The notes below the pieces were generated by a model. That model made no database searches. It had not been told where the DNA came from and saw only the letters and a list, made by a program, of their open reading frames with translations. 64,000 bases of DNA from a virus (taxonomy: Duplodnaviria; Heunggongvirae; Uroviricota; Caudoviricetes), in IMG/VR virus record IMGVR_UViG_3300038492_000258, positions 108,995 to 172,994 of that record. One strand, 5' to 3'. How positions within the stretch are numbered: position 1 is the stretch's first letter; each line of letters starts with the position of its first letter. Position numbers and translations under genes: made by a program. Below are positions 13,385-42,163 of this stretch, in pieces.

Positions 13385-14215
13385 CGCGGATGAGATTCGC
13401 GACCTTCGGAAGAGGTGGGATGTAGCCCCCAAGTAGAGGTAACAGCGGCTGCGGCATCGTTAAATGCGGTGATTGTGTGGATAGAGGGAACGATAGCCAT
13501 GGATAGCTTCAACTGTCCGGGCACTCTACATGCCTTCGGGCATAGCCCTTCCGAAGAACTCTTTGACAACTTGTAATCGTACACCTGATGTTACGGTACC
13601 GTAACATCAGGAACCTAAGATAGTTACAGCAGAGAGGTAACTCTGCGGTATCGAGTATGAAGCCTCGGCATCACGTTACCAAGCATGCCAACCTCATGAA
13701 GGGAAGAGGATAAGAAAGATACCAGTAACTATTTATCTGACCCTGTCGTCTAGGCTAGGACACCCCCAATACTCAGGGGGAGACGAAGGTGCAACACCTT
13801 CCGGGGTCGCCAAACATGTTATTAACAAGCAGCTTATGGTGAAAAACTAAGGATAATGCTGACCCATAAACAAGTCCGTGGACCGATCTAAGCTTCCCCG
13901 GGCACTGCTACAATTACCACGAAGGGGTGGATAAGATTCTTGAAGTAAATAGAGACGTTCGCTTAGAAAACTATCTTTTTTATGAGGAGAACTCCGTCTC
14001 CGACAGAATTCCAAAATTGTATGTTGATAACAACTAGAGGCGAACATATTATCGCCTCTAAAGTCCAAACATGTATATGACGTAGCTACAGTCAGCATGT
14101 TTCTCTTAATCGGGCAAATTGTAGGAACGAATTCGGAATCGGCCAGCGATGTCCAGAATTCTTCGCGAGTATTAGGTTCGGACTGGCATACCCTTTTACG
14201 TCGAAGATTAAGAGT
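13385..14215 (+). ncRNA. long structured non-coding region (unknown RNA)
   Basis: No credible ORF; UUCG-capped hairpins (ATGCC-TTCG-GGCAT), long-range pairing CCTTCGGAAGAG/CTCTTCCGAAGG about 140 nt apart; the minus ORF 13847..14485 runs through tRNA genes and is spurious. Confidence 0.3.
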
Positions 14216-14508: not shown

Positions 14509-16590
14509 ATGAACAAGCAAGAAATTCTTATTAAGAAGCGTGATGCGATCGAAGCTCGTCCGGCAGCTCGTGCTCGTGCGGCAGATCTGAAAGATCCTCG
14601 TGCTTTGGTTTTCCAAGCCGAAGCCATGAGGCTTGGATTTATCCTCAGCGAAGACCTTTTGTCTACCATTAGTCGTCTGAGCGACACCGCAATTATGGCC
14701 CTCTACAAAGAAGTGGTGCCTGTTCTGCGGAACATGGTCGGCGATGATGTCGAGTGGAAGCCGATGTATCCTAACTTCCCGAAGCAAGTTATGGAGGCAC
14801 CGGTTATTGAGCTTTTCCTTAACGCTATCGTTCACTATTGGTCGGGCGGACAATGGACGCCCGATTATGTCGCTGAGCCTCGTTTGCCGGCATTTGAAGC
14901 AACAAAATTCCGCACTCTGTCCCTTGCCGGGAGCGACGACCTAGCTTCTATCTTTACAGAAATTCTGTCCGCAAACGCTTCTGTTACGCCTGCGGATATC
15001 CGTATGCTCACGGAAATGTTTGATCGTGGCGATATTAATGAAGCTCAATTGGCAGCGGCCCTTCCGGATAATATTCCGTTTAGAGAAACTCTCTGCTGGT
15101 TTGTTGGTGAATGTATCGATCGTGGATGGACCGTGACGGGCATGGGAGCACTCAAAACGGCTACCGACGTATTGCGGGTAGCTACCCACCTTTCTCAAGG
15201 AGATGTTTCTCTTGCTGAGAATACTCGCTATCGTAGCTTTAGTCGCCCCTTGCGTAGGGCCTTCGTTGAAAGGTTGGAGCAAGTAGCGAACCAGAACGAT
15301 GTTTTCCGTCATCGTGGTAAATGGGTGCGTCTAGCTCACTCGTTACACGTTGGAGACTTTAGTGCCCAAGCACCTAATTTCTACAACATGATTACGGCTG
15401 CTCGGAGTAATGCTACTAAATATCAAAGCTTTGATGGTCGTGTAGAATCCGCCATTGCAAATCGCGACCGTAAGGGCGTTTGTAGTCTCCTAAAGCAACG
15501 TCCTGGTGTATTCGCACGTCGTCTTGATCATCTTCTGCGAGAATTTGGTCCCCGTGATATTGCACGGGAATTCATTGGTGTGGTTGATAAGGTAGATACG
15601 CGAGTACTGCTACAACTGCATGGTCATTTCAATGGACGTACTCAGAGCGTCGATCGTCGTTTGGTATTCCCGAAGGGCAATATGGGTAAGGCACGTTTGC
15701 TTACTAATACGCTAGAGGCTCTGCCTACGGCAACCGTAAAGCATATTCGTGATGGTATTGAAAGTGCTCTAGAGGCACGTTTTGCGACCCTAGATCCTCT
15801 TGGAAAAGTTTATATCGATAAGACACTTTGGGATTGCCCAATTCCATTGAGCCTACGTTCTGCATCCGAAGGGCTACAAACTGTCGCCCGAGGCACACGA
15901 ATGCCGATTGGGGATAAGGGTACCGTTCGGATGTTTATCTACTGGAAAGGTCGTGACATTGATCTTTCTGGATTCTTGGTAAATGAAGACTTTACGCAAG
16001 AAAGTACTGTCGCTTATTACAATCTAAGAGAAGGTTTCGGATGTCACTCTGGCGATATTACGAATGCTCCTCGTGGTGCTTCTGAGTTTATTGACATTAA
16101 TGTCGATCAAGCTTTGGCTGAAGGTCATCGTTACCTAGTAATGACCGTTCATGTATATTCTGGTCCTACTTTTAAGGAGCACGAAGTTTGTTATGCGGGC
16201 TGGATGACCAGAAGTCATCCTGGCAGTAATGAGATTTACGATCCCAAAACTGTTCAGCACCGCATCGATGTGCAGGCCGATAGCCGCACGGCTGTGCCTG
16301 TTATGTTTGACCTAAAAGAAAGACAAGCGATTTGGCTTGACTTGGTCCAACGTGGTGGTAATCTAAGGCGTCCTAACAATGTTGCGAACAGCAAGGCTGG
16401 CCTTGTGGATTTCATTGATGGGGCATTGAATATGGATAATAAGCCAACGCTCTTCGAGCTATTCGAAATGCATGCAAGAGCACGAGGTACGATCGTTGAC
16501 AATATGAATGATGCCGATAAAGTCTTCTCTTGGTCTGAAGGCACGAAGCCTACGGATGTATCAGAGATTCTTTCAGAGTATCTTGGTTGA
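14509..16590 (+). CDS. large hypothetical protein (693 aa)
   Basis: Long uninterrupted ORF; helical N-terminal two-thirds, C-terminal region with degenerate vWA-like DIDLSGF segment; function unknown. Confidence 0.45.
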   Translation: MNKQEILIKKRDAIEARPAARARAADLKDPRALVFQAEAMRLGFILSEDLLSTISRLSDTAIMALYKEVVPVLRNMVGDDVEWKPMYPNFPKQVMEAPVIELFLNAIVHYWSGGQWTPDYVAEPRLPAFEATKFRTLSLAGSDDLASIFTEILSANASVTPADIRMLTEMFDRGDINEAQLAAALPDNIPFRETLCWFVGECIDRGWTVTGMGALKTATDVLRVATHLSQGDVSLAENTRYRSFSRPLRRAFVERLEQVANQNDVFRHRGKWVRLAHSLHVGDFSAQAPNFYNMITAARSNATKYQSFDGRVESAIANRDRKGVCSLLKQRPGVFARRLDHLLREFGPRDIAREFIGVVDKVDTRVLLQLHGHFNGRTQSVDRRLVFPKGNMGKARLLTNTLEALPTATVKHIRDGIESALEARFATLDPLGKVYIDKTLWDCPIPLSLRSASEGLQTVARGTRMPIGDKGTVRMFIYWKGRDIDLSGFLVNEDFTQESTVAYYNLREGFGCHSGDITNAPRGASEFIDINVDQALAEGHRYLVMTVHVYSGPTFKEHEVCYAGWMTRSHPGSNEIYDPKTVQHRIDVQADSRTAVPVMFDLKERQAIWLDLVQRGGNLRRPNNVANSKAGLVDFIDGALNMDNKPTLFELFEMHARARGTIVDNMNDADKVFSWSEGTKPTDVSEILSEYLG

Positions 16591-16722
16591 TAAATAAAAT
16601 TGAACGGCCACATAATATCTTCCTTCTATATCTACGATTTTGGAAACCTAGATATTAAACTTTCCGTTCCATTATACAAAACAATGCGGCTATAAGCTTC
16701 TCTTCCTTCTATTTTACCAACC

Positions 16723-16852
16723 GGGGGTTGCGGGTTCGAGTCCCGTCAGGCGGCCCTGCCGTCTGTAGCTCAACTGGTAGAGCACCGGTCTTATTCGAAA
16801 CTAGAGAGCCCAATTTCCGCACTTACAAAGGCCCGGCGACGGCAGGGCCTAT
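16723..16852 (+). ncRNA. atypical tRNA-like element
   Basis: T-arm-like GCGGG-TTCGAGT-CCCGT followed by a D-arm-like GTAGCTCAACTGGTAGAGCA enclosed in a 12-bp inverted repeat GGCCCTGCCGTC/GACGGCAGGGCC; does not fold as a canonical cloverleaf. Confidence 0.3.
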
Positions 16853-16854
16853 CG

Positions 16855-16941
16855 CTCTAGATGACAGATGCATATGTTGTTGGTGTAAAGGCAGCACACC
16901 GGCCGAAAGCCGGAGGAACGGTTCGATTCCGTATCTAGGGT
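16855..16941 (+). ncRNA. tRNA-like element with long extra arm and non-canonical anticodon region
   Basis: Acceptor CTCTAGA/TCTAGGG, T arm AACGG-TTCGATT-CCGTA, extra arm CCGGC-CGAAA-GCCGG; no standard 7-nt anticodon loop found. Confidence 0.3.
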
Positions 16942-17252
16942 GATGAATACAAGGTGGCTATTCGAATTCCTTCCTTCTATGATGCTGCACAAGCATCAGC
17001 CTATTAAGCTGACTTTAGGGATTGTAATTTCCACCACTTAAAACATGACGGCTATTCTTACTTCTTCCTTCTACATCAAATTTATTGGAAAATTTTAAAT
17101 AGAGGCTGAAATCTCCGTCATTTCTTACAAGTGAAGTGTATCTGACTGTACCAACGTGGTGACTATTGAGACCGCAAATCTCAATATGGAATCGACAGAA
17201 TGGGGCGGTGCTCAGCTAGCCGTCAAATGTCACCGGACGCTTCACTTTTCAT

Positions 17253-17289
17253 GTCCATGAAAATTTTCATGTACATGAAAGGGCTCGTT
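17253..17289. promoter_or_regulatory. tandem palindromes TTTTCATGT(C/A)CATGAAA x2 upstream of tRNA-Glu
   Basis: ttttcatgtccatgaaaattttcatgtacatgaaa, each unit internally palindromic (TTCATG-N-CATGAA). Confidence 0.3.
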
Positions 17290-17357
17290 CGTCTATCGGT
17301 TGAGGATACCAGACTTTCAATCTGGAGAGACGGGTTCGATTCCCGTACGAGCTACCA
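17282..17357 (+). tRNA. tRNA-Glu (anticodon UUC), CCA encoded
   Basis: Anticodon arm CCAGA-CTTTCAA-TCTGG, T arm ACGGG-TTCGATT-CCCGT, acceptor GGCTCGT/ACGAGCT. Confidence 0.7.
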
Positions 17358-17361
17358 AATT

Positions 17362-17568
17362 ATGAAGAAAATTATCACACTAAATAAAGATGGGTATCGT
17401 ACCGTGTGGCAAAATAGCAACACAAAAGGTATGATCGATGTTGATATCTTCAAAGAAGACGAAGAGACGCCTTGTTTGGAATGGTCATATGGCAAAGTTG
17501 TTGGTAATTCTATTCTTGGAAACGCCAATTTCTGGCTAGATCAAGCTATTGCTCAAGCAAGAGGTTAA
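17362..17568 (+). CDS. hypothetical small protein
   Basis: ATG right after tRNA-Glu; 68 aa (MKKIITLNKDGY...). Confidence 0.3.
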   Translation: MKKIITLNKDGYRTVWQNSNTKGMIDVDIFKEDEETPCLEWSYGKVVGNSILGNANFWLDQAIAQARG

Positions 17569-17748
17569 AGCAGAAGGAGATGCATGCGGATTAGGCTTGT
17601 AAGCCAAGGGCTTAGAAAAGCAGAAATTATAATCCTAGAAGAAACCACTTATGGTAGAGTGAGTCAAACACGCCATCTGAAGTATTTCGAAAAATATGAT
17701 ACATGGCGTGACGTTCACGGAAATCTCTACAATATAAAGAATAAAAGT

Positions 17749-17814
17749 GTCCTATTGGTGTAACGGTAGCACGCCCGACAGAACTCGGGCAGAACGGTTC
17801 GACTCCGTATGGAC
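17749..17814 (+). ncRNA. tRNA-like element with bulged acceptor and 6/8-nt anticodon-region loop
   Basis: GTCC(T)AT/ATGGAC acceptor with one bulged nt, D arm GTGT..GCAC, stem GCCCG/CGGGC with loop ACAGAACT (8 nt) or CCCGA/TCGGG with 6-nt loop, T loop TTCGACT. Confidence 0.3.
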
Positions 17815-17823
17815 CTGAAACAT

Positions 17824-17900
17824 GGCTCTGGGGCCCGTGAGGACGGGCAGTGGCCTCTAAAACCACTTTGTAGCGGGTTCGACTCCCGTCAGGGCCTCCA
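17824..17900 (+). tRNA. candidate amber-suppressor tRNA (anticodon CUA)
   Basis: Acceptor GGCTCTG/CAGGGCC (7 bp with one G.U), D arm GCCC-GTGAGGAC-GGGC, anticodon arm GTGGC-CUCUAAA-ACCAC with C.A at 31-39 (alternatively perfect 5-bp stem with 9-nt loop, CUA still central), T arm GCGGG-TTCGACT-CCCGT, ends TCCA. Confidence 0.45.
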
Positions 17901-17906
17901 ATATAT

Positions 17907-18034
17907 TGCCATGTAGTGTAAAAGCGGGCGAAAGTCTTATGCGAGTGATCATTAGCTTGGACCTCTTGGAAACGCGGGATAGCACGCCGGAAATTGAGCC
18001 GGTAGTATTGGTTCGAATCCAATCGTGGCAGCCA
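17907..18034 (+). ncRNA. tRNA-like element with about 48-nt insertion in D region and 8-nt anticodon-region loop
   Basis: Acceptor TGCCATG/CGTGGCA, T arm ATTGG-TTCGAAT-CCAAT, ends GCCA; D region GTGT...GCAC interrupted by insert; CCGG-AAATTGAG-CCGG stem-loop. Confidence 0.3.
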
Positions 18035-26904: not shown

Positions 26905-27003
26905 GTAGAATGAGTCTACGGCAGTTCGACTCTGTAAGTGGCAACAGCTAGGCGAATAGGTTGGGGTTGATCGCCCCTCCCGGTTCGAATCCGGGCATTC
27001 TAC
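26905..27003 (+). ncRNA. 99-nt tRNA-like element with 8-9 bp terminal stem
   Basis: GTAGAATG/CATTCTAC terminal helix, T arm CCCGG-TTCGAAT-CCGGG, class-II-like D region GTC-TACGGCAGTTC-GAC, two extra hairpins (CTGT-AAGTGGCA-ACAG; GGGG-TTGATCG-CCCC); no canonical anticodon loop. Confidence 0.3.
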
Positions 27004-27048
27004 TTAGTACATTAATTAATAAAACTGAAAAAAAAGAAAGAATTAAAA

Positions 27049-27756
27049 ATGAAGAATCAGTGAAGAGGAAACGACACCGGAATCGTTGTCGAAATCCAGG
27101 CCGGTGAAGGTGGAGACGATTCAAAACTATTTGTTGACGACTTATTTTCTGCATACTTAAAATATGCGGAGACTAATAATGCCAAGACAGAACTAGTCTA
27201 TAAGTCGCACGGCAAAGTGGGCTTTAAAGTATTGGGAAATAAGGCTGCCAAGTTATTTAAACACGAAACCGGCAAGCATGTAGTGCAACGGTGTCCGCCA
27301 ACAGAGAATAAGGGAAGGCGGCATACCAGCACTATTACTGTTTCTATTCTTCCTATTCTTAGCTCATCTTCTTTTACTCTGAAAGAGCAAGATATTGAGA
27401 CAAAAACCCAACGTGGCCATGGGCCTGGTGGACAACACCAGAATACAACCGATTCAGCCGTCCGTATGGTTCATAAACCCACGGATACAGTTGTTTTCAT
27501 CAATGGGCGAGATCAGCATTCCAATAAGCGTTTAGCACGTCAAATTCTGGAAGCTAGAGTGGCCGAGAAAATCCGAGGCCGCCAAAACCGTGAACGATCT
27601 GAAAATAAACGAGAACAGGTTGACGGTGGCGGCCGAGGCAACAAAACTCGAACATACAATTTCCTTGACAGTCGAGTTGTAGACCATATACTTGGTACTC
27701 GCACGAGCAAGATCAAACAGGTCATGAAGGGCCGATTCGATTTACTCTGGAAATAA
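27049..27756 (+). CDS. class-I release factor homolog (RF1-like PxT-type) lacking domain 1, with in-frame UGA at codon 5
   Basis: After TGA at 27061 the frame encodes EIQAGEGGDDSKLFVDDLFSAYLKYAE...VVQRCPPTENKGRRHTS...GHGPGGQHQNTTDSAVRMVHKPT...RTYNF (RF domains 2-4: PPT tripeptide region, RHTS, GGQ); ATG 27049 is 4 codons upstream in frame; the ORF track only reports the part from GTG 27217. Confidence 0.55.
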
Positions 27757-30729: not shown

Positions 30730-30822
30730 GGAAGGCGTCCGGCTGGACGAGGAACTAGTCTTGAAAACTAGCAGGGCTGTGGCGACATGGCCTTTAGGGT
30801 TCGAGTCCCTAGCCTTCCTCCA
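30730..30822 (+). tRNA. tRNA-Ser (anticodon UGA), CCA encoded
   Basis: Acceptor GGAAGGC/GCCTTCC, anticodon arm CTAGT-CTTGAAA-ACTAG, long variable arm, T arm AGGG-TTCGAGT-CCCT. Confidence 0.65.
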
Positions 30823-41194: not shown

Positions 41195-41284
41195 GGGGGC
41201 GTTTACCGAGCGGTCGAAGGTATCCGGCTTTTAACCGGGCGGGCGAAAGCCCCATCGTGGGTTCGAATCCTACCGCCCTCACCA
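41195..41284 (+). tRNA. long-variable-arm (Ser-like body) tRNA with Lys anticodon (UUU), CCA encoded
   Basis: D region ACCGAGCGGTCGAAGGT like tRNA-Ser; anticodon arm TCCGG-CTTTTAA-CCGGG (E. coli tRNA-Lys loop); extra arm GGGC-GAAA-GCCC; discriminator A. Confidence 0.5.
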
Positions 41285-41334: not shown

Positions 41335-41697
41335 GTGGACACTATGACTACGAAACGAACCAAGAAGAAGTTTCCCCTGGCGGACGTACTCACCATCGTT
41401 TGTGGCATCGAACTTGGCGAATCTGGCCGAGAGGGTGCCCTGAAAGTTGCTCGTTTTTTCATGGATGAGAAAGATATGTCCATGGAAGAGTTAGAGCAAC
41501 GCGGCTATGATATTCAGCAGTTGCTTCGAATTCAATTGACGCAATTTTCACAAATTGACGCTGAGGTTGATCAATACGAGAAATTCCTAGCAGCCGCAGA
41601 AGATCAGTCACAGGCCGACTCGCTTGCGGACGATTTCGTTACGCAACAGATGCATACTCACGGAGAAACTGTAGAAGTACATAAAATGGGGTCGTAG
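41335..41697 (+). CDS. acidic hypothetical protein
   Basis: 120-aa ORF. Confidence 0.35.
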   Translation: MDTMTTKRTKKKFPLADVLTIVCGIELGESGREGALKVARFFMDEKDMSMEELEQRGYDIQQLLRIQLTQFSQIDAEVDQYEKFLAAAEDQSQADSLADDFVTQQMHTHGETVEVHKMGS

Positions 41698-41764
41698 CCC
41701 AATCGGCAGAGGCAACAGACTTAAAATCTGTCAAGTGTGGGTTCGAGTCCCACCGACCCTACCA
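41688..41764 (+). tRNA. short-variable-arm tRNA with Leu anticodon (UAA), CCA encoded
   Basis: Acceptor GGGGTCG/CGACCCT, anticodon arm ACAGA-CTTAAAA-TCTGT, 5-nt variable loop, T arm GTGGG-TTCGAGT-CCCAC, A73. Confidence 0.55.
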
Positions 41765-42087: not shown

Positions 42088-42163
42088 GCACGAGTAGCCC
42101 AACGGCAGAGGCACATGGCTTAGGACCATGCAAGTGTGGGTTCGAATCCCACCTCGTGTACCA
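42088..42163 (+). tRNA. short-variable-arm tRNA with Leu anticodon (UAG), CCA encoded
   Basis: Paralog of 41688 tRNA; anticodon arm CATGG-CTTAGGA-CCATG, G37, 5-nt variable loop, A73. Confidence 0.55.

What the first reader, a model, noticed from the sequence alone, without database searches (positions are those of the whole stretch)
17824..17900. Candidate amber-suppressor tRNA (anticodon CUA)
This tRNA has a good acceptor stem, D arm and T arm. Its anticodon stem is GTGGC/ACCAC and the loop reads CUCUAAA, i.e. U33-CUA-A37, the classical supE-type loop. An alternative fold (perfect AGTGG/CCACT stem, 9-nt loop) still centres CUA. A CUA anticodon decodes UAG. About 650 bp downstream, a gene has an in-frame UAG at codon 3 (see the next finding). 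Phages that carry suppressor tRNAs and recode stops in a subset of genes are known, but this instance combines the suppressor with termination-factor genes that themselves carry the stops.
Basis: seen in the sequence. Interest (0 to 1): 0.8.

Follow-up and report, generated by a model that had tools for sequence, protein, structure and literature searches.

The report
Suppressor tRNA gating a neighbouring hydrolase gene
This phage tRNA reads the stop codon UAG, and its target appears to be a stop codon deliberately placed at codon 3 of a nearby peptidyl-tRNA-hydrolase-like gene; the same tRNA-plus-gene pair recurs in about a hundred other large phages and seems not to have been described.

Summary
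Window 17824..17900 (+) is a tRNA with anticodon CUA in the standard register (ARAGORN; Rfam tRNA 33.8 bits, threshold 29). It is atypical: G8, G14, a C31·A39 mismatch, U73.

The gene at 18552..18866 reads GGAG-N7-ATG AAA TAG and then encodes a PTH2-fold protein.

Among 100 distinct homologues from metagenomes and viral contigs:
- 87 carry an in-frame stop at codon 2-9 (codon 3 in 59).
- 82 of these stops are TAG and 5 are TGA.
- 57 of the TAG genes have a co-oriented CUA tRNA in the fetched flanks (typically 4 kb a side, less on short contigs).
- 3 of the TGA genes have a UCA tRNA. No pairing is discordant.
- A third small gene (ORF-X, window 18950..19291) follows in 60 loci.

The phages use the standard code; TAG ends 20 of 95 window genes. 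So this is gene-specific, tRNA-gated readthrough, not genome recoding.

The module also occurs in cultured Acinetobacter phage ME3. I found no description of it in the searchable literature.

The physiological purpose and the inserted amino acid are unknown. The release-factor gene of this phage carries TGA, not TAG, so this tRNA cannot read it.

The parts
17824..17900 (+). tRNA with anticodon CUA (amber suppressor type), CCA encoded, discriminator U73, C31·A39 mismatch, G8/G14
   Evidence: ARAGORN. Rfam RF00005 at 33.8 bits in the standard register. Fold. Comparison with the other 27 tRNAs of the window. It belongs to a set of 68 distinct suppressor tRNAs found beside PTH2-like genes. In a 41-sequence alignment of these, 18 of 19 stem pairs show compensatory changes.
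18541..18544 (+). Shine-Dalgarno GGAG, 7 nt upstream of the ATG that precedes the in-frame TAG
   Evidence: Read from the sequence. In 73 of 87 early-stop homologues an SD-like motif precedes the start that lies upstream of the stop. Only 2 of 34 alternative downstream starts have one.
18552..18866 (+). PTH2-like (peptidyl-tRNA hydrolase 2 fold) gene: ATG AAA TAG ACA CAC..., 104 codons if the TAG is read through
   Evidence: Translation. Pfam PTH2 at 21.5 bits, E = 2.7e-4, below the cut-off of 23. AlphaFold model with pLDDT 92. The top 13 Foldseek PDB hits are all Pth2 proteins, TM 0.71-0.78. Homologues and alignment.
18558..18560 (+). In-frame TAG at codon 3, followed by A: the proposed decoding site of the CUA tRNA
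   Evidence: Read from the sequence. No ATG/GTG/TTG lies between it and the conserved N-terminal strand FFILIRKDL; the first is a TTG 16 codons downstream, inside the conserved core. An early stop is present in 87 of 98 evaluable homologues, and the base after it is G in 55, A in 27, C in 5 and T in 0.
18950..19291 (+). ORF-X, 113 aa, third conserved gene of the module (motifs QRKTG and ITAALNLYHELRGSxYRH); function unknown
   Evidence: BLAST clustering of neighbouring ORFs. Alignments. An HMM finds it on the same strand in 60 of 100 distinct loci, downstream of the PTH2-like gene in 58. No Pfam or PHROG match. The helical model has pLDDT 92 and no PDB fold match.

Best explanation
The tRNA at 17824..17900 is a phage-encoded amber suppressor. 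Its specific and conserved client is the UAG at codon 3 of the PTH2-like gene 650 nt downstream.

Proposed mechanism:
- Ribosomes start at the SD-preceded ATG (18552) and reach UAG after two codons.
- There the charged CUA tRNA competes with release factor 1.
- If the tRNA wins, the full PTH2-fold hydrolase is made. ORF-X, which follows on the same strand, is probably made with it.
- If RF1 wins, only a dipeptide is made.

The early stop is therefore a translational gate. It makes hydrolase output depend on the ratio of suppressor activity to RF1 activity.

Shown here by comparison: the conserved stop, the adjacency, the shared strand, the anticodon/stop covariation, coding constraint right after the stop, and the PTH2 fold.

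Inferred: that the tRNA is expressed and aminoacylated; which amino acid is inserted (probably unimportant, since acceptor stems and discriminators vary between phages); and the purpose. My preferred purpose is coupling. The hydrolase would be produced only when, and in proportion as, stop-codon readthrough is taking place. It would then recycle peptidyl-tRNAs generated by readthrough and drop-off, or restrain or recycle the suppressor tRNA itself.
For: - The tRNA is real, with CUA in the standard register.
- Of 100 distinct PTH2-like genes, 87 have an in-frame stop 17-30 codons upstream of the QA.HA motif, preceded within 10 codons by a start. The stop is codon 3 in 59.
- 59 of those 87 have no ATG/GTG/TTG between the stop and the conserved strand. 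73 of 87 have an SD before the upstream start.
- Residues just after the stop are conserved while codons change synonymously: window ACA CAC TTC TTT, L015 AGC CAT TTC TTC, L018 ACA CAT TTT TTC.
- 57 TAG genes have a CUA tRNA and 3 TGA genes have a UCA tRNA, with no mismatch. An uncorrected Fisher test gives about 3e-5.
- The tRNA is always on the gene's strand and is the only tRNA in 39 distinct loci. 65 of 243 tRNAs in these loci are suppressors, against 0 in the loci fetched around release-factor-like genes.
- The suppressor tRNAs keep the cloverleaf through compensatory changes in 18 of 19 pairs.
- A 31-39 C·A or A·C mismatch recurs in 7 of 41, so that feature of the window tRNA is not decay.
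- The base after the stop is a purine in 82 of 87. From my own knowledge, that context favours suppression.
- The PTH2 fold is predicted with high confidence.
- The module is present in cultured phage vB_AbaM_ME3 (ATG ACT TAG, with an annotated CTA tRNA 450 nt upstream) and in Gemmataceae genome bins.
Against: - There are no expression, aminoacylation or readthrough data.
- The window tRNA scores low (33.8 bits) and lacks U8 and A14, unlike its closest relatives in L085 and L019. This particular copy could be impaired.
- 25 early-TAG genes have no suppressor tRNA in the fetched flank. Many of these are short contigs, but only 36 of 60 loci with ample flanks have the tRNA within about 2 kb.
- Four loci keep the CUA tRNA beside a PTH2-like gene that has no early stop (L082, L129, L132, L147-149). 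The link is therefore not only through the gate.
- The phage's own TAG terminators (20 of 95 genes) would also be read through.
- The Pfam PTH2 score of the window protein is below the curated cut-off.
- The purpose I propose is conjecture.
Confidence: 0.8

Rival explanations
1. The tRNA is a general nonsense suppressor with no dedicated target. It would buffer amber mutations, extend host or phage proteins, or be a first step towards TAG recoding as proposed for relatives of recoded phages. On this view its position near the PTH2-like gene is incidental.
For: Suppressor tRNAs are common in large phages, and targets have not been found before (XacN1 paper PMC5852040; Borges et al.). TAG-terminated genes of the window have a median of only 4.5 codons to the next in-frame stop, against 8 for TGA and 17.5 for TAA. 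General readthrough would therefore be cheap (not significant).
Against: Adjacency, shared strand and perfect anticodon/stop concordance across about 60 independent loci are not expected from an incidental neighbour. The loci use the standard code: treating TAG as sense gains no more ORF cover than treating TGA or TAA as sense. No mid-gene TAGs occur in the window. This rival can be true in addition to the main explanation, but not instead of it.
Confidence: 0.1
2. The AUG-NNN-UAG is a two-codon leader mini-ORF that really terminates. The hydrolase would be made by re-initiation or from a non-canonical start. The mini-ORF would act as a regulatory 'minigene' that produces dipeptidyl-tRNA, the substrate of the hydrolase, rather than as a readthrough site.
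For: From my own knowledge, two-codon minigenes such as the lambda bar loci are known to load cells with peptidyl-tRNA and to interact genetically with Pth. The leader is nearly always 2-5 codons long and often ends in Thr or Ser codons.
Against: This model gives no reason for the stop codon to switch to TGA exactly where the neighbouring tRNA has anticodon UCA. The reading frame is kept across the stop in all cases, and residues immediately after the stop are conserved. 59 of 87 genes have no canonical start there, and only 2 of 34 downstream candidate starts have an SD.
Confidence: 0.06
3. The window copy is a decayed tRNA pseudogene and the PTH2-like gene is a pseudogene with a nonsense mutation. 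Nothing functional is present here.
For: The covariance score is low. G8 and G14 replace near-universal U8 and A14, and there is a mismatch in the anticodon stem. The gene caller of the source assembly did not call the full gene.
Against: The same 'defects' are conserved features of a large family: the early TAG in 82 genes and the 31-39 C·A mismatch in 7 of 41 tRNAs. The acceptor, anticodon and T stems are intact, and the CCA end and 3' context match the other 27 tRNAs. The PTH2-like frame is open and conserved after the TAG.
Confidence: 0.04

Closest known systems
Classical amber suppressor tRNAs (E. coli supE/supF; phage T4 psu suppressors)
   Same: Elongator tRNA with anticodon CUA, U33 and A37 in a 7-nt loop. 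It competes with RF1 at UAG.
   Different: The classical ones are mutant alleles of ordinary tRNAs, found by selection. This one is a wild-type, conserved gene with no recognisable parent isotype and with a dedicated client gene next to it.
'Code-change module' of stop-codon-recoded phages (suppressor tRNA + aaRS + release factor; Borges et al., bioRxiv 10.1101/2021.08.26.457843)
   Same: A phage-encoded suppressor tRNA is used to license translation of genes that carry in-frame stops. Release-factor genes are present in the same genomes.
   Different: In recoded phages dozens of late genes carry in-frame stops and the stop is no longer a terminator. Here the genome uses the standard code, a single gene carries one stop at codon 3, and the partner is a PTH2-like hydrolase, which that paper does not mention (0 occurrences of 'hydrolase').
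prfB (RF2) autoregulation through an early in-frame UGA
   Same: A translation-termination-related gene has a premature in-frame stop near its 5' end. The decoding outcome sets the expression level, which makes it a sensor of termination efficiency (my own knowledge of prfB).
   Different: prfB is bypassed by a +1 frameshift and senses its own product. Here the frame continues through the stop, bypass needs a separate tRNA gene, and the product is a hydrolase rather than the factor that reads the stop.
Suppressor tRNAs of standard-code jumbo phages with unknown targets (XacN1, Atu_ph07, phiKp24)
   Same: CUA, UCA or UUA tRNAs in large tRNA-rich phages that also encode peptidyl-tRNA hydrolases.
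   Different: Those papers searched downstream of annotated stop codons and reported no target. Here the target is at the 5' end of a gene that annotation pipelines truncate. XacN1's own family member is a fusion without the early stop.
Archaeal/eukaryotic Pth2 (PF01981; e.g. PDB 1xty, 1q7s, 2zv3)
   Same: Same fold (TM 0.71-0.78). The alignment retains an acidic/Thr-containing C-terminal motif, FREPD...ATALAT.
   Different: About 20% identity and below the Pfam cut-off. The Lys of the GK motif that I recall from Pth2 is not evident. The family is phage-borne and carries the early stop codon.

Membership tests
tRNA (Rfam RF00005) | Covariance-model score at or above the gathering score, with a full cloverleaf | tested here: met
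   33.8 bits against 29, model positions 1-71 of 71. ARAGORN also calls it.
tRNA (Rfam RF00005) | Near-universal core nucleotides U8, A14, G18G19 and the T-loop GTTCRA | tested here: inconclusive
   G18G19 and GTTCGA are present, but positions 8 and 14 are G. Close relatives L085 and L019 have the normal U8/A14.
Amber suppressor tRNA | Anticodon CUA at positions 34-36 of a 7-nt loop with U33 and a purine at 37 | tested here: met
   Loop C-U-C-U-A-A-A in the Rfam register. ARAGORN places the anticodon at position 34.
Amber suppressor tRNA | Actually inserts an amino acid at UAG in vivo | not testable with these tools
   There is only a comparative proxy: cognate early stops beside the tRNA, with CUA/TAG in 57 loci, UCA/TGA in 3 and no mismatch.
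tRNA-Pyl (ARAGORN's label) | 6-bp anticodon stem, 3-nt variable loop, small D loop without GG, no TΨC consensus | tested here: not met
   The anticodon stem has 4-5 pairs, the variable region is 6 nt, GG is present in the D loop and the T loop is GTTCGA. The label reflects the anticodon only.
Stop-codon-recoded phage (genetic code 15) | Many genes interrupted by in-frame TAG, TAG not used as a terminator, and low coding density under code 11 | tested here: not met
   No mid-gene TAG has coding signal on both sides. TAG ends 20 of 95 genes. Treating TAG as sense gains no more than treating TGA or TAA as sense, in the window and in 55 related loci.
PTH2 peptidyl-tRNA hydrolase (PF01981), for the client gene | Pfam score at or above the gathering score | tested here: not met
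   21.5 bits against 23. 12 of the 50 homologues listed carry a precomputed PF01981 hit.
PTH2 peptidyl-tRNA hydrolase (PF01981), for the client gene | Pth2 fold | tested here: met
   Model pLDDT 92.2. Foldseek PDB ranks 1-13 are all Pth2-family chains, E from 7e-6 to 2e-3, TM 0.68-0.78.
PTH2 peptidyl-tRNA hydrolase (PF01981), for the client gene | Hydrolyses N-blocked aminoacyl-tRNA | not testable with these tools
   This needs an enzyme assay or complementation of E. coli pth(ts).
prfB-type autoregulatory recoding | Early in-frame stop bypassed by a +1 frameshift at a slippery CUU U site | tested here: not met
   The open frame continues in frame 0 after the TAG. There is no CTT T motif at 18552-18560.

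The most novel reading that the evidence does not exclude
A compact three-part module is spread across large phages of many environments and some Planctomycetes genomes. It consists of a dedicated suppressor tRNA, a PTH2-like hydrolase gene gated by the cognate stop at codon 3, and the unknown protein ORF-X. On this reading it works as a built-in sensor and controller of translation termination in the infected cell. For example, it could read out RF1 activity or counter a host response that acts at stop codons or on peptidyl-tRNA. It would also explain why standard-code phages carry suppressor tRNAs at all. The early UGA in the same phage's truncated RF1 gene would be a second arm of the same circuit.
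Probability: 0.3. Interest if true: 0.9.

Novelty: new variant of a known kind. Interest (0 to 1): 0.8.

Why it matters
Suppressor tRNAs have long been annotated in jumbo and other large phages that use the standard genetic code, and authors have said explicitly that they could not find what these tRNAs read (XacN1). This finding gives a concrete, conserved target. The target sits at the 5' end of a gene that every annotation pipeline truncates, which explains why it was missed.

The arrangement is a natural example of a single gene whose translation is licensed by its own tRNA. Stop codon and anticodon have co-evolved (TAG with CUA, TGA with UCA). That is a design principle used in synthetic biology but not, to my knowledge, described as a natural two-gene cassette.

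It ties together three termination-related functions in one phage: a suppressor tRNA, a peptidyl-tRNA hydrolase and a truncated RF1. This suggests that large phages tune termination in the host.

It is directly testable, because the module is present in cultured phages: Acinetobacter phage vB_AbaM_ME3, and the early stop alone in Cronobacter phage GAP32.

It also has a practical consequence. Gene callers should allow a cognate early stop next to a suppressor tRNA.

Tried and rejected
- Megablast of 15000-22000 against INPHARED phages found no match. The phage is distant from cultured ones; the best tblastn identity was 37%.
- An exact 21-nt anticodon-arm pattern in IMG/VR found no match.
- Source look-up found only an 18.5-kb Logan contig (SRR4039776). 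A JGI contig of 182 kb carries the same proteins, but I could not read the whole genome, so a genome-wide TAG scan beyond the 64 kb was not possible.
- Assigning an amino-acid identity to the suppressor tRNAs failed. I compared them with their nearest neighbours among 303 ordinary tRNAs from the same loci. Best identities were 0.69-0.81, spread over 16 isotypes. Discriminators are A, G or U.
- Family members without the early stop have a deletion there, not a sense codon, so the inserted amino acid cannot be read from alignments.
- ORF-X has no Pfam, PHROG or PDB fold match.
- The tRNA-like element at 26903..27008, upstream of the RF1-like gene, was tested as a possible UGA suppressor. It has no Rfam match above noise and contains no UCA. 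Rejected.
- The RF-like gene was tested as PrfH. It fits RF1 far better (230.9 bits against 81.5). Rejected.
- The promoter/terminator scan of 17100-19500 showed nothing informative.
It worked with 8 sequences.
- Pyrrolysine reading of the TAG was rejected on tRNA anatomy.

Full report
**1. The observation**

ARAGORN finds 28 tRNA genes in the 64-kb window. One of them lies at exactly 17824..17900 (+) and has anticodon CTA. The Rfam tRNA covariance model matches 17824..17897 at 33.8 bits (gathering score 29) in the canonical register, with anticodon loop C-U-CUA-A-A. It marks the 31-39 pair (C·A) as non-standard. A whole-window Rfam scan with default filters had missed this tRNA. Most other tRNAs of the window score 49-69 bits, so it is an atypical tRNA.

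- Positions 8 and 14 are G rather than U and A.
- The D arm can form six pairs with a 4-nt loop.
- The acceptor stem is 7 pairs with one G·U, the T arm is GCGGG/TTCGACT/CCCGT, the discriminator is U73, and CCA is encoded.
- All 28 tRNAs of the window encode CCA and are followed by A-rich sequence.

One refinement is needed: the stated anticodon stem has a mismatch.

**2. The genome uses the standard code**

The window has 45% G+C and no close relative among deposited phages.

- Treating TAG as a sense codon lengthens ORFs no more than doing the same with TGA or TAA.
- No long gene is interrupted by a TAG with coding signal on both sides.
- TAG terminates 20 of 95 confidently coding ORFs, against 43 for TGA and 32 for TAA.

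This is not a TAG-recoded phage.

**3. The gene with TAG at codon 3**

At 18541 there is a GGAG. Seven bases later comes ATG AAA TAG ACA CAC TTC TTT ATT TTA ATT CGC AAA GAC CTC..., which stays open to 18866. The first canonical start after the TAG is a TTG 16 codons further on.

The product matches Pfam PTH2 weakly (21.5 bits, cut-off 23). An AlphaFold model built on 26 homologues has pLDDT 92. Its 13 best Foldseek hits in the PDB are all Pth2 peptidyl-tRNA hydrolases (M. jannaschii MJ0051, human Bit1, P. horikoshii PH1539, S. solfataricus Pth2, AF2095, TA0108), with TM 0.68-0.78.

Homologues normally begin one to a few residues before the strand '(Y)VLVR.DL'. The TTG start would delete that conserved strand. 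The source databases call the window's protein in exactly that truncated form (P0001, 84 aa).

**4. The early stop and the tRNA are conserved together**

The three closest homologues with readable contigs gave the first sign:
- L015: ATG ACG TAG AGC CAT TTC TTC
- L018: GGAG-N5-ATG TTG TAG ACA CAT TTT TTC
- L017: GGAGG-N6-GTG AAC GGA ACA TAG

L017 and L018 each have a CUA tRNA just upstream.

I then fetched 80 metagenome loci and 52 IMG/VR loci with a family alignment and analysed them locally.

*tRNA presence.* ARAGORN finds a suppressor-type tRNA in 88 of 138 loci. It is always on the strand of the PTH2-like gene and is very often the only tRNA present.

*Early stops.* After removing duplicates there are 100 distinct genes, of which 98 are evaluable:

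| Class | Genes | With CUA tRNA | With UCA tRNA |
|---|---|---|---|
| Early in-frame TAG | 82 | 57 | 0 |
| Early in-frame TGA | 5 | 0 | 3 |
| No early stop | 11 | 4 | 0 |

The stop is codon 3 in 59 genes. The three TGA/UCA cases are L084 (ATG GGC GGA TGA), L125 (ATG GAA CAT TGA) and L126 (ATG GAA TCG TGA).

This anticodon/stop covariation is the key result. It is what is expected if the tRNA decodes that stop, and no other reading I considered predicts it.

*Supporting details.*
- 59 of 87 early-stop genes have no ATG/GTG/TTG between the stop and the conserved strand.
- 73 of 87 have an SD-like motif before the start that precedes the stop. Only 2 of 34 downstream candidate starts have one.
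- The residues right after the stop are conserved through synonymous codon changes.
- The base after the stop is G (55), A (27), C (5) and never T.
- Among 60 distinct loci with at least 1.5 kb upstream and 1.8 kb downstream, 36 have the tRNA inside that span.
- The tRNA lies either upstream (median -321 nt from the QA.HA motif) or just past the next gene (median +698 nt).
- In 39 distinct loci it is the sole tRNA.
- 65 of 243 tRNAs in these loci are suppressors. None was found in the 12 + 25 loci fetched around release-factor-like genes.
- The related loci are as fully covered by standard-code ORFs as expected (median 84%), and TAG-as-sense adds nothing special.

**5. The tRNAs are under selection as tRNAs**

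The loci yield 68 distinct suppressor tRNA sequences. In a 41-sequence alignment, RNAalifold recovers the cloverleaf, and 18 of 19 predicted pairs show compensatory double changes. The 31-39 pair is C·A or A·C in 7 of 41 sequences. These include the window's nearest relatives (L085, which shares the acceptor stem GGCTCT./.AGGGCC and U73, and L019). So this 'defect' is a recurrent trait.

Acceptor stems and discriminators differ widely (A, G or U at position 73). Nearest-neighbour comparison with 303 ordinary tRNAs points to no isotype. I infer that the amino acid inserted is not what is conserved. That fits the stop lying in a variable N-terminal tail.

**6. A third gene**

The ORF that follows the PTH2-like gene in the window (18950..19291, 113 aa) belongs to a family found on the same strand in 60 of 100 distinct loci, immediately downstream in 58. 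It has invariant motifs (Q..LK.QRKTG; ITAALNLYHELRGS.YRH). It has a confident all-helical model and no Pfam, PHROG or PDB relative. Its role is unknown.

**7. Where else the module occurs**

The PTH2-like family occurs in cultured jumbo phages.
- Acinetobacter phage vB_AbaM_ME3 has ATG ACT TAG ATT CAT... and, 450 nt upstream, a tRNA annotated 'tRNA-OTHER, anticodon CTA'. The CDS is annotated from a downstream start.
- Cronobacter phage GAP32 has ATG GCA CAA TAG. I did not look for its tRNA.
- RaK2 has no early stop, and XacN1 has a fused version without one.
- Genome bins of Gemmataceae/Planctomycetia carry the module too, one on a 1.64-Mb contig. It could be a prophage or chromosomal.

**8. 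Literature**

Full-text searches for combinations of suppressor tRNA, peptidyl-tRNA hydrolase or PTH2, phage, jumbo, readthrough and defence found no description of this pairing.
- The XacN1 paper states that read-through of its 18 amber terminators revealed nothing and that targets of its CUA tRNAs could not be identified.
- The Atu_ph07 and phiKp24 papers likewise leave the role open.
- Work on recoded phages describes suppressor tRNA + aaRS + release factor modules that switch many late genes on (PMC13037316). That is a different situation.

The library lacks most subscription journals, so prior description cannot be excluded.

**9. Mechanism and its limits**

The best-supported mechanism is gene-specific amber readthrough. 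The CUA tRNA competes with RF1 at codon 3 of the hydrolase mRNA, so hydrolase synthesis reports the suppressor/RF1 balance. The logic resembles prfB autoregulation, but with in-frame readthrough and a separate tRNA gene.

Why a phage would want this is not shown. I favour coupling the hydrolase to readthrough activity. The hydrolase would clear peptidyl-tRNAs produced by readthrough, drop-off or stalling, or it would recycle or limit the suppressor.

Four loci keep the tRNA next to a PTH2-like gene without the stop. This suggests that the two also cooperate beyond the gate.

For the window copy specifically, the unusual core (G8/G14) leaves some doubt about activity.

**10.

The gene at 27049..27756 is an RF1 lacking domain 1.
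- NCBIfam prfA model positions 103-334 of 347 are matched, at 230.9 bits.
- The PxT-type motif QRCPPTE and the GGQ motif are both present.
- It reads ATG AAG AAT CAG TGA AGA..., so TGA is at codon 5, with no later canonical start before the conserved EIQAGEGG.

In 25 related phage loci the pattern recurs. The nearest in-frame stop is mostly TGA (17 of 25), often 3-5 codons after an ATG: 'MQS TGA', 'MQ TGA', 'MSKS TGA', 'MQH TGA'. No suppressor tRNA lies within 3 kb.

This is a second, separate early-stop gate in a termination gene, but the CUA tRNA cannot read it.

**Verdict**

- The kind is a new variant of known things (suppressor tRNAs; early-stop regulation of termination genes).
- Interest is high, because the pattern is widespread, unannotated and directly testable.

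Noticed in passing
window 27049..27756 (+); TGA at 27061..27063; related loci L003-L005, L155-L179: A release factor 1 lacking domain 1 (PPT and GGQ motifs kept) has an in-frame TGA at codon 5 and no later canonical start. In 25 related phage loci the same family mostly shows an early in-frame stop, TGA in 17 of 25, and no suppressor tRNA within 3 kb. What reads the UGA is unknown.
   Followed up: partly
window 17907..18031 (+): Directly after the CUA tRNA, Rfam matches a tRNA (34.5 bits) with a 59-nt insertion in the D loop and an 8-nt anticodon loop AAAUUGAG. It has a U1-A72 acceptor end and G73, which look Gln-like. It could be an intron-containing or disrupted tRNA. ARAGORN does not call it.
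   Followed up: partly
window 17750..17815 (+): A tRNA-like sequence with good D and T arms (ACGG TTCGACT CCGT) but a poor acceptor stem and a 6-nt anticodon loop. Neither ARAGORN nor Rfam calls it. It is probably a decayed tRNA.
   Followed up: no
window 26903..27008 (+): A roughly 100-nt element just upstream of the RF1-like gene, with a 10-bp terminal helix and a perfect T arm (CCCGG TTCGAAT CCGGG) but no recognisable anticodon arm. Folding z-score is -2.3 and no Rfam family matches above noise.
   Followed up: partly
window 41688..41764, 42088..42163, 41195..41284, 20138..20227 (+): Body type and anticodon do not match in several tRNAs. The two tRNAs with Leu anticodons (UAA, UAG) are short class I tRNAs of 76-77 nt. 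The tRNAs with Lys UUU and Asn GUU anticodons are 90 nt with long variable arms. This could mean unusual identity rules or deliberate miscoding.
   Followed up: no
window 13739..13812 (+) and 30730..30822 (+): 'tRNA-Ser(ACU)' has a possible 8-nt anticodon loop and a non-canonical T loop (TGCAACA). tRNA-Ser(UGA) has discriminator U73 and a short 4-nt D loop. Both were missed by Rfam at the gathering threshold.
   Followed up: no
window, whole: The 28 tRNAs cover 19 amino acids. No tRNA-Cys was found in the 64 kb.
   Followed up: no
L003/L004 5885..5990: Upstream of the RF1-like gene of this related phage there are two prfB-like motifs, CTT TAG C and CTT TGA C, in successive frames, starting from an SD-preceded ATG. 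There is also an in-frame TAG in the RF frame. Whether frameshifting or readthrough is used there is unresolved.
   Followed up: partly
L002 2475..2850 and L009 3854..4236: tmRNA genes are encoded in related phage contigs close to the PTH2-like or RF-like genes. L018 carries RtcB. Ribosome-rescue and RNA-repair functions seem to cluster with the module.
   Followed up: no
window 21370..25330 (+): The window also encodes an ATP-dependent DNA ligase, a NUDIX hydrolase, a receiver-domain protein and a nicotinamide phosphoribosyltransferase (NAD salvage). These come from Pfam labels on the identical Logan contig.
   Followed up: no
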